Source: a virus. Taken from it: a stretch of DNA of 64,000 bases. Of the stretch, positions 30,001 through 52,596 are shown piece by piece. The stretch is taken from IMG/VR virus record IMGVR_UViG_3300021962_000032, one strand, 5' to 3'. A model generated the notes under the pieces. It was not told the origin of the DNA and searched no databases. It worked only from the letters and a program-made list of their open reading frames with translations. The number at the start of each line of letters is the position of its first letter. The stretch's first letter is position 1. Both the position numbers and the translations under genes were made by a program.

Positions 30001-31482
30001 TCAGAACGTGAACTTGGTCTGGATTACACCACCCCACTTGCTGCTGTCCTGATAACGCTGATTGTTTTCAACGTAGAACAGAGCAGGAGTGATGCTGATG
30101 TTGTCAGTAACTTGGAACTTGTAGAAGAACTCAAGCATCGTAGCATCAGATACACCAGCGGTTTCAGCAGAAGGTGCCTGTCCAACAGCAACACCAGCAG
30201 TGTTACCAGCAACAAACGCATCTGCCCACTGAAGACCAACGAACCAGGAATCCGAATCAGTTGCATCGGTAGCACCAGTAGTACCATTTACGAAGTTATA
30301 TCCGTAACCAGCACTGATGGAGGGAACCCAACCAGATTCAGAAGGTTGCCAATATGCGTTAAGAGCAATGGCATTGGATTCTTGACCATCTACAAGAGCA
30401 CCAGAGGCACCAAGGAGACCATTGTAGGTGCGAGGACGGGTGCCCTCAGAACCATAACGATAACCAGCACCAACACCCCAGTTAGATCCTTTGTAACCTA
30501 CCTGAGCAATGAAGTTCAGAGCACCTTCGGAATCAAAGACACCAGTGGAACTATCTTCACCATTCTCGGCAACATAGTTCAGACCAGCAACGAATCCACC
30601 TTTGCCAACATACTGAGCACCAACACCAGCACCAGTTGCCTTGTTATAGACACCAGGAGCACCAGCAACTTGGAAGAAGTCAAGGATTTCCGACTTATAA
30701 GCAGAAGGAACCCATGCCATCTCAGTGTTACGAACCTTAGGACCAGCAGTAATAGTCACACTATCACCCACAGGGAACTGATAGTAGAGACGATCAAGAA
30801 CAACATTGTCTCCAGTCAGAGCAGTAGTGTTGTCTGCCTTGTCCAGTTTGAACAGGGAAGACGAAGAACCGAAAGGATCACTGCTGAAGTTAGCAGAACG
30901 CAGACGAGTGCGAAGGAGATCACGACCAGTGAACGAAGTGTCAAAGTTCAGACGGACATCATAATTAAATGCGGTGTTGCCAACGTTTCCACCAGCATTA
31001 GTTTCAAGTCCAGGAACTCCACCCAGAACAAAGGTAGCCTCACCCTTCAGTTTGGTAGTGGTAGAGAACTGAGTTGCCTCAAGAACACCAACCTTTGCTT
31101 CCAAACCATCTACACGACCACGGAGAACAATCAGTTCTTCTTTGAATTCTGCCTGAAGTTTACGAAGCTCATCGGTGACTTCAGTTACACGATCGAGGCA
31201 AGCATTCAGCAGTGCTGCTGCTTCGTAACGAGTCATTGCCTTACCACCACCATAGGTGCCGTTAGGATAACCTGCTACGCAACCATAACGCTCAATAAGA
31301 TTAGTGAGTGCTTGATATGCCCAGTCGGTAGGTTGAACATCAGAGAATTGAGTAACGCTTGTTACCTGTTCAACAGAAGAGTACTTGCTGACATCCTCAA
31401 TATTGAGTTCTGCGGCAGTAGCAGCAGGAGCAACAAGACCCAAAGCAACAGGGACAAGCATCAGTTGTTTGAGAAAATTCAT
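30001..31482 (-). CDS. Som-type cyanobacterial porin (SLH domain plus OprB-like beta-barrel)
   Basis: Signal peptide; QFSDVQPTDWAYQAL..L.ERYGC.AGYPNG; QFSTTTKL.GE; C-terminal TKFTF. Confidence 0.93.
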   Translation of the reverse strand: MNFLKQLMLVPVALGLVAPAATAAELNIEDVSKYSSVEQVTSVTQFSDVQPTDWAYQALTNLIERYGCVAGYPNGTYGGGKAMTRYEAAALLNACLDRVTEVTDELRKLQAEFKEELIVLRGRVDGLEAKVGVLEATQFSTTTKLKGEATFVLGGVPGLETNAGGNVGNTAFNYDVRLNFDTSFTGRDLLRTRLRSANFSSDPFGSSSSLFKLDKADNTTALTGDNVVLDRLYYQFPVGDSVTITAGPKVRNTEMAWVPSAYKSEILDFFQVAGAPGVYNKATGAGVGAQYVGKGGFVAGLNYVAENGEDSSTGVFDSEGALNFIAQVGYKGSNWGVGAGYRYGSEGTRPRTYNGLLGASGALVDGQESNAIALNAYWQPSESGWVPSISAGYGYNFVNGTTGATDATDSDSWFVGLQWADAFVAGNTAGVAVGQAPSAETAGVSDATMLEFFYKFQVTDNISITPALFYVENNQRYQDSSKWGGVIQTKFTF

Positions 31483-51277: not shown

Positions 51278-51349
51278 TGGGAAATGTCGGACTTGAACCA
51301 ACGACTTACTGCGTGTAAAGCAGTCACTCTACCACTGAGTTAATCTCCC
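51278..51349 (-). tRNA. tRNA-Val(UAC)
   Basis: Cloverleaf; CTGC-TTTACAC-GCAG. Confidence 0.93.
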
Positions 51350-51351
51350 GA

Positions 51352-51560
51352 ACAGTGGTGAGTGTCCACCACTTGCACCAGACACTTGATGCGATTTTCA
51401 CCGTGTTAGAGGACGGCAAATAAAAGGTTTCCAGTAGCCTTTCTTATCTCCCATAAGGAAGATGTAGGTATCGAACCTACAAAGGATAGTCCCTTAAGGA
51501 ACTACTGGGAATTCCACCCAGAACCAATATGAAAGAATCGAACATTTCCAACCCTTTCAA
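51352..51560 (-). ncRNA. Unassigned structured RNA (multibranch with T-loop hairpin and kissing hairpins)
   Basis: At least eight hairpins or long-range helices fill the spacer between two tRNAs; see findings. Confidence 0.65.
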
Positions 51561-51633
51561 CTGGGGCGGCAGGGATCGAACCTGCGACCTAGATGTTAAC
51601 AGCATCCCGCTACTACCGCTGAGCTACACCCCA
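51561..51633 (-). tRNA. tRNA-Asn(GUU)
   Basis: Cloverleaf; GATG-CTGTTAA-CATC. Confidence 0.95.
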
Positions 51634-51953
51634 TTATGTTGTTCATGATGTATTTCTCGATGGCAGTTAGCACATACGAGAATACATTTATCTGCTTCTG
51701 CCTTCTGCTTTTCAATGGCAACGGTGGTTCCAAGGTTTTTAGATTTTTTAGTTGTGGGATCGAGATGATGGAACTCTAAGGCAGAGATACATTTATCATA
51801 TCCACAACGTTCACACTTACCACCTTTATATTCTACTAAAAGAAGTTTGTTTTTCTTACGTCTTTTAATGACACTTGCTTTGTTTGCTTCTTTACGATCA
51901 GAATACGTTCTATTTTCTTTAGGCATTTGGCAGAAGTTTGATTGTTCTACCAT
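51624..51953 (-). CDS. HNH endonuclease (free-standing)
   Basis: GGKCERCGY...LEFHHLDP...KCILVCANCHREIH; TATAAATA at 51954-51961. Confidence 0.9.
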   Translation of the reverse strand: MVEQSNFCQMPKENRTYSDRKEANKASVIKRRKKNKLLLVEYKGGKCERCGYDKCISALEFHHLDPTTKKSKNLGTTVAIEKQKAEADKCILVCANCHREIHHEQHNGV

Positions 51954-51964
51954 TATTTATAAAA

Positions 51965-52170
51965 TGTGTGGGTGGTGAGATTCTGTCATACTCACAACTG
52001 GAAGGTCTCACTGACAACGTAATTATTCCAGCACTTTTAGGTTCCTTGGCATTGGATTCTGTAACTCTGGTCTCCCAGTTTTACAGCGGGCACCACCCCT
52101 ACCTTACTATACAATATCCAGTGCTTGACCACATAGATTTTTCTGTCACACCCTTTGGAAATCCGTCGAT
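51965..52170 (-). ncRNA. manA-like structured RNA motif
   Basis: GGGTGTGACAGAAAAATCTATGTGGTC start; GGGTGGTG/CACCACCC helix; CTGTAA..CTGG-GAGA-CCAG..TTACAG; tRNA-adjacent. Family assigned from memory. Confidence 0.6.
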
Positions 52171-52177
52171 CTCCAAG

Positions 52178-52249: not shown

Positions 52250-52250
52250 A

Positions 52251-52366
52251 AATAAGAAAAGCAGATGCATATTGTGAATTTAAAATCCACGGACTTCATA
52301 CTTTTCTCTTTTTCAAGTAGGTTTACTGTTGCTTACCCTTAAAACCCACTACAAAATGGATAAGCA
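52251..52366 (-). ncRNA. Unassigned pseudoknotted RNA preceding tRNA-Gly
   Basis: TGCTTATCC/GGGTAAGCA stem whose loop AGTGGGTTT pairs with downstream AAACCTACT; second long hairpin. Confidence 0.5.
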
Positions 52367-52373
52367 GAAGACA

Positions 52374-52402
52374 ATCATATCACACATTGATAAGATTGTC
52401 AA
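52374..52402 (-). promoter_or_regulatory. Sigma70 promoter inside the tRNA cluster
   Basis: TTGACA-N17-TATGAT. Confidence 0.7.
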
Positions 52403-52567: not shown

Positions 52568-52596
52568 ATAATACCAGATTGTCCTGGTGCTGTCAA
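52568..52596 (-). promoter_or_regulatory. Sigma70 promoter of the tRNA operon
   Basis: TTGACA-N17-TATTAT. Confidence 0.7.

What the first reader, a model, noticed from the sequence alone, without database searches (positions are those of the whole stretch)
51352..51560. Unassigned ~210-nt highly structured RNA between tRNA-Asn and tRNA-Val, with a T-loop and a perfect kissing-loop pair
Seen (minus strand, 5' to 3'): hairpin TGAAAGGGTTGGA/TTCGATTCTTTCA; a multibranch domain where CCAGTAG can pair with CTACTGG, in competition with local hairpins CTGGG/CCCAG and TAGTTCC/GGGACTA; CCTTT/AAAGG enclosing a tRNA T-arm mimic TGTAGG-TTCGATA-CCTACA and TCTTCC-TTAT-GGGAGA; then TTTGCCGT/ACGGTGAA; and two adjacent hairpins GCATCA-AGTGTC-TGGTGC and AGTGGTG-GACACT-CACCACT whose 6-nt loops are exact reverse complements. 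No ORF explains it. Inference: one or two stable ncRNAs released by tRNA processing, analogous to the unexplained stable RNAs in the T4 tRNA cluster; possibly a tRNA mimic or a decoy for host anti-phage nucleases. I cannot match it to a named family.
Basis: partly seen in the sequence, partly recalled or inferred. Interest (0 to 1): 0.75.

Follow-up and report, generated by a model that had tools for sequence, protein, structure and literature searches.

The report
Sealed tRNA mimic in cyanophage tRNA array
The 211-base gap between two tRNA genes of this cyanobacterial virus holds three separate, conserved, folded RNA modules, the central one a tRNA look-alike with its amino-acid end sealed by a loop and no usable anticodon; the family is in no RNA database I could search and its function is unknown.

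Summary
The tRNA-Asn/tRNA-Val spacer (51350-51560, minus strand) folds far better than shuffles (z -4.8) and has no Rfam match.

It is three modules that related phages mix and match, not one RNA:
- H0, a 13-bp hairpin after tRNA-Asn.
- A 102-nt five-helix core (51425-51526).
- A three-hairpin module 'a' (51354-51420) with two mutually complementary loops.

About 100 IMG/VR and metagenome contigs carry the core, always inside same-strand tRNA arrays. P1, P3, P4 and P5 show compensatory changes. The core is 93-96% identical where the neighbouring tRNAs are 72-90%.

The core derives from a tRNA-Ser(GCU)/next-tRNA junction. It keeps the anticodon-like arm (G33, Y37, so non-decoding), a long variable arm and a canonical T arm. 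The acceptor is sealed as a 7-bp hairpin.

Closest analogues are YrlA and T4 RNAs C/D, but it is a member of neither.

Module 'a' has over 50 variants and also occurs in the isolate S-SRM01. Its loop complementarity holds in 35 of 35 copies, but a 1-nt linker argues against an intramolecular kiss.

Function is inferred (tRNA mimic or decoy), not shown. This scan found the same family earlier on other genomes.

The parts
51561..51633 (-). tRNA-Asn(GUU), upstream neighbour. Its 3' end defines the start of the spacer.
   Evidence: ARAGORN; Rfam tRNA 55.3 bits.
51530..51559 (-). Module H0: 13-bp hairpin with loop AAAUGU, directly after the tRNA.
   Evidence: Seen in sequence and flagged as a stem of 13 pairs. 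Twenty distinct versions carry compensatory swaps (G-C/A-U, A-U/G-C, A-U/U-A, U-A/C-G). It also occurs in contigs without the core and in S-SRM01.
51425..51526 (-). Core: sealed, tRNA-derived five-helix RNA. P1 is 51522-51526 with 51425-51429.
   Evidence: Model R1 scores 129 bits, E 5e-34, as the only copy in the window. About 100 contigs carry it. 98% of cells are paired against 40-52% for slid controls, and 8 pairs have changes on both sides with 0 of 500 shuffles reaching that. P1 is seen as GC/CG/UA, GC/AU and UA/AU/GC.
51505..51521 (-). P2: 5-bp stem plus 7-nt loop UGGAAUU. It has anticodon-arm geometry, but G at position 33 and a pyrimidine at position 37.
   Evidence: Invariant in nearly all copies. 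ARAGORN reads it as the anticodon arm, 'Phe GAA', in contigs such as L004.
51487..51504 (-). P3: 7-bp stem with a variable tetraloop (GUUA, UUAA, UUCG and others). It stands in for the long variable arm of a class-II tRNA.
   Evidence: C-G/U-A compensatory changes at two pairs. Colinear with the variable arm of tRNA-Ser(GCU).
51464..51480 (-). P4: canonical T arm, 5 bp plus loop UUCGAUA.
   Evidence: Together with the next 7 nt it is identical (24 of 24) to the T arm and 3' acceptor strand of a genuine tRNA-Ser(GCU) in L052. Two compensatory pairs in L118.
51446..51463 (-). P5: sealed acceptor-like hairpin, AUCUUCC-UUAU-GGGAGAU, 7 bp, with a G.U at the 3:70-equivalent pair.
   Evidence: 99.7% paired, with one compensatory pair. 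The same layout is found at genuine tRNA-Ser(GCU)-GUAU-tRNA-Ile(GAU) junctions in L091 and L174.
51430..51445 (-). J5/1: conserved 16-nt single strand AAGAAAGGCUACUGGA, resembling positions 8-9 plus the D-loop of the downstream tRNA, with UGG.
   Evidence: Nearly invariant columns 84-99 of A1. The derivation is inferred from the tRNA-Ile D-arm at the L091 and L174 junctions.
51397..51420 (-). Module a, hairpin H1: 8-bp stem with conserved loop CCUCUAAY.
   Evidence: Three pairs with changes on both sides.
51375..51392 (-). Module a, hairpin HA: 6-bp stem with loop AGUGUC (51381-51386).
   Evidence: Three pairs with changes on both sides, and an invariant loop apart from U to C at loop position 5.
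51354..51373 (-). Module a, hairpin HB: 7-bp stem with loop GACACU (51361-51366), complementary to the HA loop. It ends 4 nt before tRNA-Val.
   Evidence: Four pairs with changes on both sides. The loop-loop helix is pairable in 35 of 35 copies (UG 28, UA 6, CG 1; GC 34, GU 1).
51278..51349 (-). tRNA-Val(UAC), downstream neighbour. RNase P cleavage at its 5' end would set the 3' end of module a (inference).
   Evidence: ARAGORN; Rfam tRNA 68.2 bits.
52374..52402 (-). Sigma-70-type promoter TTGACA-17-TATGAT, the likely start of the transcript that runs through the finding.
   Evidence: 11 of 12 consensus match with a TG extension, and no convincing terminator before the finding. This is a consensus match only.

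Best explanation
The spacer encodes three separate small structured RNAs that are co-transcribed with the tRNA array: H0, the core and module a. The enzymes that free the neighbouring tRNAs should cut them out.

The core is a tRNA relic turned into something new. It arose from the junction of a class-II tRNA-Ser(GCU) and the next tRNA. From the first tRNA it keeps the anticodon-like arm, long variable arm, T arm and 3' acceptor strand. From the second it keeps the 5' acceptor strand and a D-loop-like strand. These now fold into a closed molecule: the acceptor is sealed by a tetraloop, and a new helix P1 joins the two ends. It therefore shows the T-arm/acceptor minihelix and probably the elbow of a tRNA, but it cannot decode (G33, Y37) or be charged as it stands.

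Most likely mechanism (inferred): it acts in trans as a non-decoding tRNA mimic that engages proteins or ribozymes which recognise tRNA shape. RNase P is the prime candidate, because the 7-bp sealed stem on a 5-bp T stem is the substrate geometry that RNase P cuts in M. smegmatis YrlA. Other candidates are the CCA-adding enzyme, T-loop modification enzymes and host tRNA-targeting nucleases. The RNA would serve as a decoy or sponge.

Confidence by layer: about 0.9 for the anatomy, conservation and tRNA-junction origin; about 0.3-0.35 for the trans-acting mimic or decoy role.
For: Shown:
- Structure well above chance and no known family.
- An insertion relative to S-SM2 and Bellamy, where tRNA-Asn and tRNA-Val are 3-4 nt apart.
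- The core is present in about 75 IMG/VR and 24 metagenome contigs, always in same-strand tRNA arrays, with a tRNA sometimes starting 3-4 nt after P1.
- The five-helix model is 98% paired, with 8 compensatory pairs.
- P1, a helix absent from any tRNA, is kept through four different Watson-Crick combinations.
- The P3 and P5 loops vary freely (including UUCG), while the P2 loop, T loop and J5/1 are invariant.
- Core identity is 93-96%, against 72-90% for true tRNAs in the same contigs and about 60% for its flanks.
- No divergent, low-scoring cores appear in 873 kb retrieved independently of the core.
- Origin: a 24 of 24 match to the T arm and acceptor strand of a real tRNA-Ser(GCU), colinear from the anticodon arm onward. 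Real Ser(GCU)-GUAU-Ile(GAU) junctions are the only other model hits, at 30-34 bits.
- Modularity: different 5' and 3' partners. S-SRM01 has H0 and module a but no core.
- Co-transcription: promoters at 52596 and 52402, with no terminator before the finding.
- Weak expression hint: metatranscriptome X20 contigs cover 51426-51528, one at depth 68.

Precedent (PMC4201824): YrlA has the order V-T-acceptor stem-loop-D, and the one YrlA with a 7-bp sealed stem is cut by RNase P and receives CCA in vivo.
Against: - No transcript ends, abundance, binding partner or phenotype has been measured. The metatranscriptome evidence comes from contigs in one run and cannot exclude DNA carry-over.
- P2 never varies, so its pairing is unproven.
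- An alternative closing helix, GUUCU/AGAAC, is 98.5% pairable although it shows no covariation.
- The family is tight, with no distant members. The high identity could therefore reflect recent spread rather than constraint, and loci were largely found with core-derived patterns (ascertainment).
- Arrays without the core (S-SM2, Bellamy, S-SRM01) evidently work, so the core is not needed for tRNA expression.
- No isolate in the phage collection carries the core.
Confidence: 0.45

Rival explanations
1. Cis-acting punctuation only. The modules are processing and stability signals of the polycistronic tRNA transcript. They provide tRNA-like cut sites and protective hairpins that help separate or stabilise neighbouring tRNAs, and they have no role once released.
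For: They always lie inside tRNA arrays, with borders that abut tRNAs. Module a usually ends 4-6 nt before a tRNA, and H0 always follows one. The 7-bp sealed stem on a T arm is an RNase P substrate geometry by the YrlA precedent.
Against: Related arrays process tRNA-Asn and tRNA-Val when they are 3-4 nt apart, with no such modules. Near-total invariance of the P2 loop and the 16-nt J5/1, and conservation above that of the tRNAs themselves, exceed what a cut site needs. The core also occurs behind its own promoter-like sequence in about 13 contigs.
Confidence: 0.2
2. Neutral relic. The core is debris of a deletion or recombination between two tRNA genes that hitch-hikes with tRNA cassettes, and its folds are leftovers of tRNA arms.
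For: Clear tRNA-junction ancestry. The distribution is narrow and shallow, with no distant relatives.
Against: It is more conserved than the functional tRNAs beside it. There are compensatory changes in four helices, including P1, which no tRNA possessed. The patterned constraint, with free tetraloops and frozen junctions, and retention in at least five different sequence contexts also argue against neutrality.
Confidence: 0.1
3. Selfish or mobile cassette. The high identity across diverged arrays reflects recent horizontal spread, for example co-conversion with the HNH homing endonuclease or a recombination hot spot, and not RNA function.
For: The core is about 94% identical where the tRNAs are 72-82%. 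It has many insertion contexts with sharp borders. An HNH gene lies 70 nt upstream in the window and in 54 loci. T4 segB sets a precedent for homing within a tRNA cluster.
Against: tRNA-Asn, which lies between the HNH gene and the core, is among the least conserved elements (72%). Many core-bearing arrays have no room for an HNH gene next to it. There are no target-site duplications or long terminal repeats. The 4-5 nt terminal complementarity covaries, which a protein-recognised end would not do.
Confidence: 0.1
4. One continuous ~210-nt RNA whose 3' domain is locked by an intramolecular kissing-loop pair.
For: In the window and in about 14 contigs the three parts are contiguous in the same order. 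The loops are exact complements here and pairable in 35 of 35 copies.
Against: Each part occurs without the others. The two hairpins are separated by 1 nt, so a coaxial 6-bp loop-loop helix could not be bridged within one molecule (geometric inference). Loop variation is one-sided only.
Confidence: 0.05

Closest known systems
YrlA (Y RNA-like A, Rfam RF02553) of bacteria and some phages (Chen et al. 2014, PMC4201824)
   Same: A tRNA mimic with the module order variable stem, T arm, acceptor-like stem sealed by a loop, then D-like region. The authors note that dimeric tRNA junctions imitate it. The M. smegmatis form, with a 7-bp sealed stem, is cut by RNase P and receives CCA.
   Different: The core scores nothing with the YrlA model. 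It has no Ro-binding helix or GNCGAAN0-1G motif and no D stem-loop. It has an extra anticodon-like arm (P2) and a short closing helix. No Ro/TROVE gene is found in five core-bearing phage contigs or among the window's large ORFs.
Phage T4 small stable RNAs C and D (species 1 and 2; rnaC, rnaD)
   Same: Unexplained small RNAs lying directly against a tRNA in the tRNA cluster of a T4-type phage, in a cluster that also holds a homing endonuclease. rnaC ends in a canonical T arm closed by its own 5' and 3' ends, so it too is tRNA-derived.
   Different: No sequence or structure homology: model R1 gives at most 12 bits, on the T arm only, with filters off. The T4 RNAs have open ends in the ordinary tRNA topology, not a sealed acceptor.
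tRNA-like domain of tmRNA, especially two-piece tmRNA from permuted genes in cyanobacteria (my own knowledge)
   Same: A T arm plus acceptor stem, a single-stranded D-loop analogue containing GG in place of a D arm, a helix leading away from the tRNA-like part, and permuted gene order with the 3' acceptor strand upstream of the 5' strand. G.U at the 3:70-equivalent pair.
   Different: There is no mRNA-like tag frame or pseudoknots, and a tRNA can follow 3-4 nt after the core. ARAGORN finds no tmRNA. The intervening loop is only 4 nt, and G.U is replaced in 3 of 41 copies.
   Same: One RNA carries two loops that are complementary to each other but cannot pair within the molecule, so they pair between molecules to build rings.
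   Different: No homology and no Rfam hit. Multimerisation of module a is untested. The context is a tRNA array, not a packaging motor.
manA RNA (RF01745)
   Same: A multi-stem cyanophage RNA of unknown function that sits in the same tRNA array of this window (51965-52175, 103.5 bits).
   Different: The finding does not match the manA model even at E<=10, and the architectures differ.

Membership tests
tRNA (RF00005) | Cloverleaf whose acceptor stem is formed by the 5' and 3' ends, detectable by tRNA models | tested here: not met
   No ARAGORN or Rfam tRNA call in 51350-51560, even at E<=10. The 3' acceptor strand pairs with a downstream strand instead.
tRNA (RF00005) | Canonical T arm (5 bp, 7-nt loop UUCRANY) | tested here: met
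   GUAGG-UUCGAUA-CCUAC, identical to that of a real tRNA-Ser(GCU) in L052.
tRNA (RF00005) | Anticodon loop with U33 and purine 37 | tested here: not met
   The P2 loop UGGAAUU or UGGAACU has G at position 33 and U or C at position 37 in all copies.
YrlA (RF02553) | Reaches the family's covariance-model threshold (69 bits) | tested here: not met
   The only YrlA match is 15.3 bits, E 5.9, at 51522-51612, lying on tRNA-Asn and H0 and not on the core.
YrlA (RF02553) | Module order V, T arm, sealed acceptor-like stem-loop, D stem-loop | tested here: inconclusive
   P3, P4 and P5 fit that order, but the D position is a 16-nt single strand, not a stem-loop.
YrlA (RF02553) | Ro-binding helix with the GNCGAAN0-1G motif | tested here: not met
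   No occurrence in 51278-51640.
YrlA (RF02553) | Encoded next to a Ro60/Rsr (TROVE) gene | tested here: not met
   PF05731 is absent from five core-bearing contigs, three of them 100% complete, while controls were positive. None of the window's 10 ORFs of 380 aa or more is TROVE. Smaller ORFs and the rest of the genome were not searched.
T4 rnaC / rnaD | Sequence and structure homology to the T4 RNAs | tested here: not met
   R1 with filters off on the T4 cluster gives at most 11.7 bits on true tRNAs and 5 bits on the rnaC T arm.
T4 rnaC / rnaD | Small RNA abutting a tRNA in the tRNA cluster of a T4-type phage | tested here: met
   Stability of the cyanophage RNAs has not been measured.
tmRNA | tRNA-like domain plus a tag reading frame | tested here: not met
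   ARAGORN finds no tmRNA, standard or permuted. There is no room for a tag where a tRNA follows at +3 or +4.
manA RNA (RF01745) | Match to the family model | tested here: not met
   manA matches only 51965-52175, and nothing in the finding matches at E<=10.

The most novel reading that the evidence does not exclude
The sealed tRNA mimic is an RNA-based counter-measure. Released in tRNA-like amounts from the phage tRNA operon, it would occupy host factors that recognise tRNA shape, such as tRNA-targeting defence nucleases or RNase P, and so protect the phage's own tRNA supply. Alternatively, after RNase P opens its 7-bp sealed stem and CCA is added (as in M. smegmatis YrlA), it would become a two-piece tRNA-like molecule with a chargeable G3.U70 acceptor end. 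Separately, module a would assemble between molecules through its two complementary loops, as phi29 pRNA does.
Probability: 0.15. Interest if true: 0.88.

Novelty: new variant of a known kind. Interest (0 to 1): 0.62.

Why it matters
Phage tRNA arrays are usually read as codon-supply or anti-defence tRNA sets, and their spacers are ignored. Here the spacers hold conserved RNA modules, and one of them is more conserved than the tRNAs themselves.

The core shows how a tRNA-tRNA junction can evolve into a sealed tRNA mimic. Chen et al. suspected the same route for YrlA, so the core is an independent natural example of tRNA mimicry without Ro.

It also revives the 50-year-old question of what the T4 cluster RNAs C and D do, in a second phage lineage. 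Module a is present in a culturable phage (S-SRM01), so at least part of the system can be tested directly.

In practice, ARAGORN sometimes annotates the core as tRNA-Phe(GAA), which inflates phage tRNA counts.

Tried and rejected
- Rfam at gathering and at E<=10 gave nothing for the finding.
- blastn (distant mode) of the 209 nt against 50,697 phage records gave no match. With a consensus-like copy as query, only module a of S-SRM01 matched.
- The genome search 'own': no genome is held for this window.
- The cellular-genome pattern scan gave one hit (L120) with no model match and no tRNAs, so it is a chance match.
- Alternative helices tested: CCAGYRG/CUAYUGG and CCUUU/AAAGG are rejected. GUUCU/AGAAC is pairable but has no covariation, and I keep it only as a possible alternative state.
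- The weak R1 hit at 30980-31033 (12 bits) lies inside the porin ORF and lacks P3 to P5, so it is a chance match.
- The Ro/TROVE search was negative, and so was the YrlA motif search (an earlier attempt failed on pattern syntax).
- The T4 RNAs are not homologous.
- Supplements of the IMG/VR structured-RNA screen (PMC10690425) are not held. I cannot exclude that the motif is among its 8,495 unnamed candidates.
- The S-CREM1 paper lists only Rfam families.
- Metatranscriptomes X19, X21 and X22 gave no cover over the finding. That is not evidence of absence.
- The palindrome GGAAUUCC in P2 was considered as a dimerisation site. It is broken in the UGGAACU variants, so I dropped it.
- Pairing of the module-a loops with the anticodon loop of the downstream tRNA was considered. 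The downstream tRNA differs between contigs, so I dropped it.

Full report
**Setting.** The window is a T4-like cyanophage assembled from a marine or estuarine metagenome. It carries nrdA and nrdB upstream of a minus-strand tRNA array, the same synteny as Synechococcus phages S-SM2 and Bellamy. Rfam finds PhotoRC-II and manA RNAs in it. The array reads, 5' to 3' on the minus strand:
- promoter at 52596
- tRNA-Arg and tRNA-Ala
- promoter at 52402
- a structured leader
- tRNA-Gly
- manA RNA
- a 109-aa HNH gene whose stop lies inside tRNA-Asn
- tRNA-Asn
- the finding
- tRNA-Val
- an 83-aa ORF
- tRNA-Ser

In S-SM2 and Bellamy, tRNA-Asn and tRNA-Val are 3-4 nt apart, so the 211 nt are an insertion.

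**Observation.** The stretch folds at -74.3 kcal/mol, z = -4.77 against dinucleotide shuffles. No Rfam family matches, even at E<=10. Only short, unconserved ORFs overlap it.

**Homologues and modularity.** blastn found nothing in 50,697 phage records. An exact 24-mer from the T-arm region found 60 IMG/VR contigs. Two further patterns and a metagenome scan raised this to about 100 contigs. Aligning the neighbourhoods shows a sharply bounded core of about 102 nt. Its 5' partner varies: the H0 hairpin, a short hairpin after tRNA-Gly, a TTGACA-17-TAACAT promoter-like sequence, or other sequence. Its 3' partner varies too: module a as in the window, two other recurrent modules, or a tRNA starting 3-4 nt later. 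All copies lie in same-strand tRNA arrays. Module a is commoner than the core. It usually sits 4-6 nt upstream of a tRNA and mostly occurs without a core. The isolate S-SRM01 has tRNA-Asn, H0, an unrelated 100-nt spacer, module a and tRNA-Thr, all unannotated, and no core. The finding is therefore three modules.

**Core structure.** On a MAFFT alignment of 39 distinct cores, the five-helix model (P1 to P5) is 98% paired against 42-52% when partners are slid. P1 and P3 show compensatory changes. With the divergent L118, L119 and L091 added, 8 pairs in P1, P3, P4 and P5 change on both sides, and 0 of 500 shuffles reach that. That second alignment was fitted to the model. P1 appears as GGUU/AACC, CGUU/AACG, CAUU/AAUG and UGUU/AACA. 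P2 is invariant, so its pairing is untested. The P3 and P5 tetraloops vary freely, including UUCG. The P2 loop, the T loop, the J3/4 strand and the 16-nt J5/1 strand are frozen.

**Origin.** The T arm plus the following 7 nt are identical to those of a genuine tRNA-Ser(GCU) in L052. The best tRNA match of the core is tRNA-Ser(GCU), colinear as follows:
- anticodon arm to P2
- long variable arm to P3
- T arm to P4
- 3' acceptor strand to the 5' strand of P5

In some contexts ARAGORN calls the core a 90-nt class-II 'tRNA-Phe(GAA)', with P2 as the anticodon arm. That loop has G33 and a pyrimidine at 37. The only other model hits anywhere are real tRNA-Ser(GCU)-GUAU-tRNA-Ile(GAU) junctions at 30-34 bits. 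There...AUCCUCC-GUAU-GGGAGAU... reproduces P5, and the tRNA-Ile D-loop (UUGG) corresponds to the UGG of J5/1. The core is thus a fused tRNA junction that has gained a closing helix.

**Constraint.** Within the same contigs, the core is 93-96% identical while tRNA-Asn, Gly, Val, Ser, Arg, Leu and Thr are 72-90% and the core's flanks are about 60%. Retrieval by core patterns biases this comparison. Even so, 873 kb retrieved through module a contain no intermediate-scoring cores. The family is therefore tight: under strong constraint, recently spread, or both.

**Module a and H0.** Module a's three hairpins have 10 pairs with changes on both sides (62 cells, 0 of 500 shuffles). The loop-loop helix AGUGUC/GRCACU is pairable in 35 of 35 copies, with one-sided changes only (U.G, U-A, C-G; G-C, G.U). 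That is consistent with pairing but does not prove it. The duplex is worth about -6 kcal/mol. The two hairpins are 1 nt apart, so I infer that any 6-bp kiss must form between molecules, as in phi29 pRNA (my own knowledge), or belong to an alternative fold. H0 shows several compensatory swaps around a conserved AAAUGU loop, and it occurs without the core.

**Expression.** Two strong promoter matches and no convincing terminator imply co-transcription with the tRNAs. In one metatranscriptome (X20), contigs cover 51426-51528, which is the core. One has depth 68 and continues into a relative's downstream module, while the contig over the HNH region has depth 2. Contigs cannot prove transcription or ends.

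**Comparison with known systems.** YrlA shares the order V, T, sealed acceptor, D. The M. smegmatis form, with a 7-bp sealed stem, is cleaved by RNase P and receives CCA (PMC4201824). P5 here is 7 bp on a 5-bp T stem, so RNase P recognition is a concrete prediction. The core nevertheless fails the YrlA model and lacks the Ro-binding motif. Core-bearing phages lack a TROVE gene. T4 rnaC and rnaD occupy the same kind of place, next to a tRNA in a cluster with a homing endonuclease. rnaC also carries a canonical T arm, but they are not homologous. The papers I could read do not describe these modules. The unnamed candidates of the IMG/VR screen could not be checked.

**Verdict.** This is a real, conserved family of tRNA-array RNAs that is undescribed as far as I could check, with a sealed tRNA-junction-derived mimic at its centre. 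Its function remains inferred. Earlier follow-ups in this scan reached the same reading on other genomes. I reached the sealed-mimic and tRNA-junction reading from this window's own data before reading those follow-ups. One of those notes did supply the YrlA paper (PMC4201824) and another the GUUCU/AGAAC helix.

Noticed in passing
window 51965-52175 (-): A full-length manA RNA (RF01745, 103.5 bits) sits inside the tRNA array, directly after tRNA-Gly and ahead of a small HNH gene. It is not upstream of any sugar or photosynthesis gene, which fits a free-standing RNA better than a cis-regulator.
   Followed up: partly
window 51624-51953 (-): A 109-aa HNH endonuclease ORF whose last codons and stop lie inside the 5' end of tRNA-Asn. 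The same HNH plus tRNA-Asn pair occurs in S-WAM2 (78% nt identity) and in 54 fetched loci (up to 90% nt identity).
   Followed up: partly
window 52250-52402 (-): A promoter (TTGACA-17-TATGAT) followed by a structured leader of about 125 nt ahead of tRNA-Gly. It is 99% identical in L006 and partly conserved in L178 and L025. It looks like another unassigned module of the array.
   Followed up: partly
L004:3501-3590 and similar contigs (L005, L016, L029, L031, L032, L041, L051, L061): ARAGORN annotates the core plus 17 upstream nt as a 90-nt 'tRNA-Phe(GAA)', with two A.C mismatches in the acceptor, G33 and Y37. This is an annotation pitfall that inflates phage tRNA counts.
   Followed up: yes
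L009, L010, L015, L020, L025 and others, about 85-180 nt 3' of the core: ARAGORN calls a 'tRNA-His(AUG)' after a recurrent module that starts GUAGGUGCCAAAACC. The anticodon is unusual, so this may be another tRNA-like non-tRNA.
   Followed up: no
L004, L012, L026, L047 and about 25 others, immediately 3' of the core; also 5' of the core in L118 and L119: A second recurrent module ('b') with two hairpins, CCUAAG-loop-CUUAGG and GGGG-AYUUGAUCA-CCCC. It is the commonest 3' partner of the core (30 of 75) and is the sequence joined to the core in metatranscriptome X20.
   Followed up: no
L228 (S-SRM01, MW015081.1 184119-184780): Four tRNA genes (Arg, Asn, Thr, Gly), H0 and module a are all unannotated in the deposited record of this isolate.
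   Followed up: yes
window 30001-31482 (-): A phage-encoded OprB-family porin with an SLH domain. S-SRM01 also has a 'porin' gene just after its tRNA array.
   Followed up: no
L253 (T4, NC_000866.4 70908-71046): T4 rnaC folds (z -4.6) with a canonical T arm, CCGGG-UUCGAAU-CCCGG, near its 3' end, closed by its termini. It looks like a tRNA with a large insertion. rnaD does not fold better than shuffles (z -0.8).
   Followed up: partly
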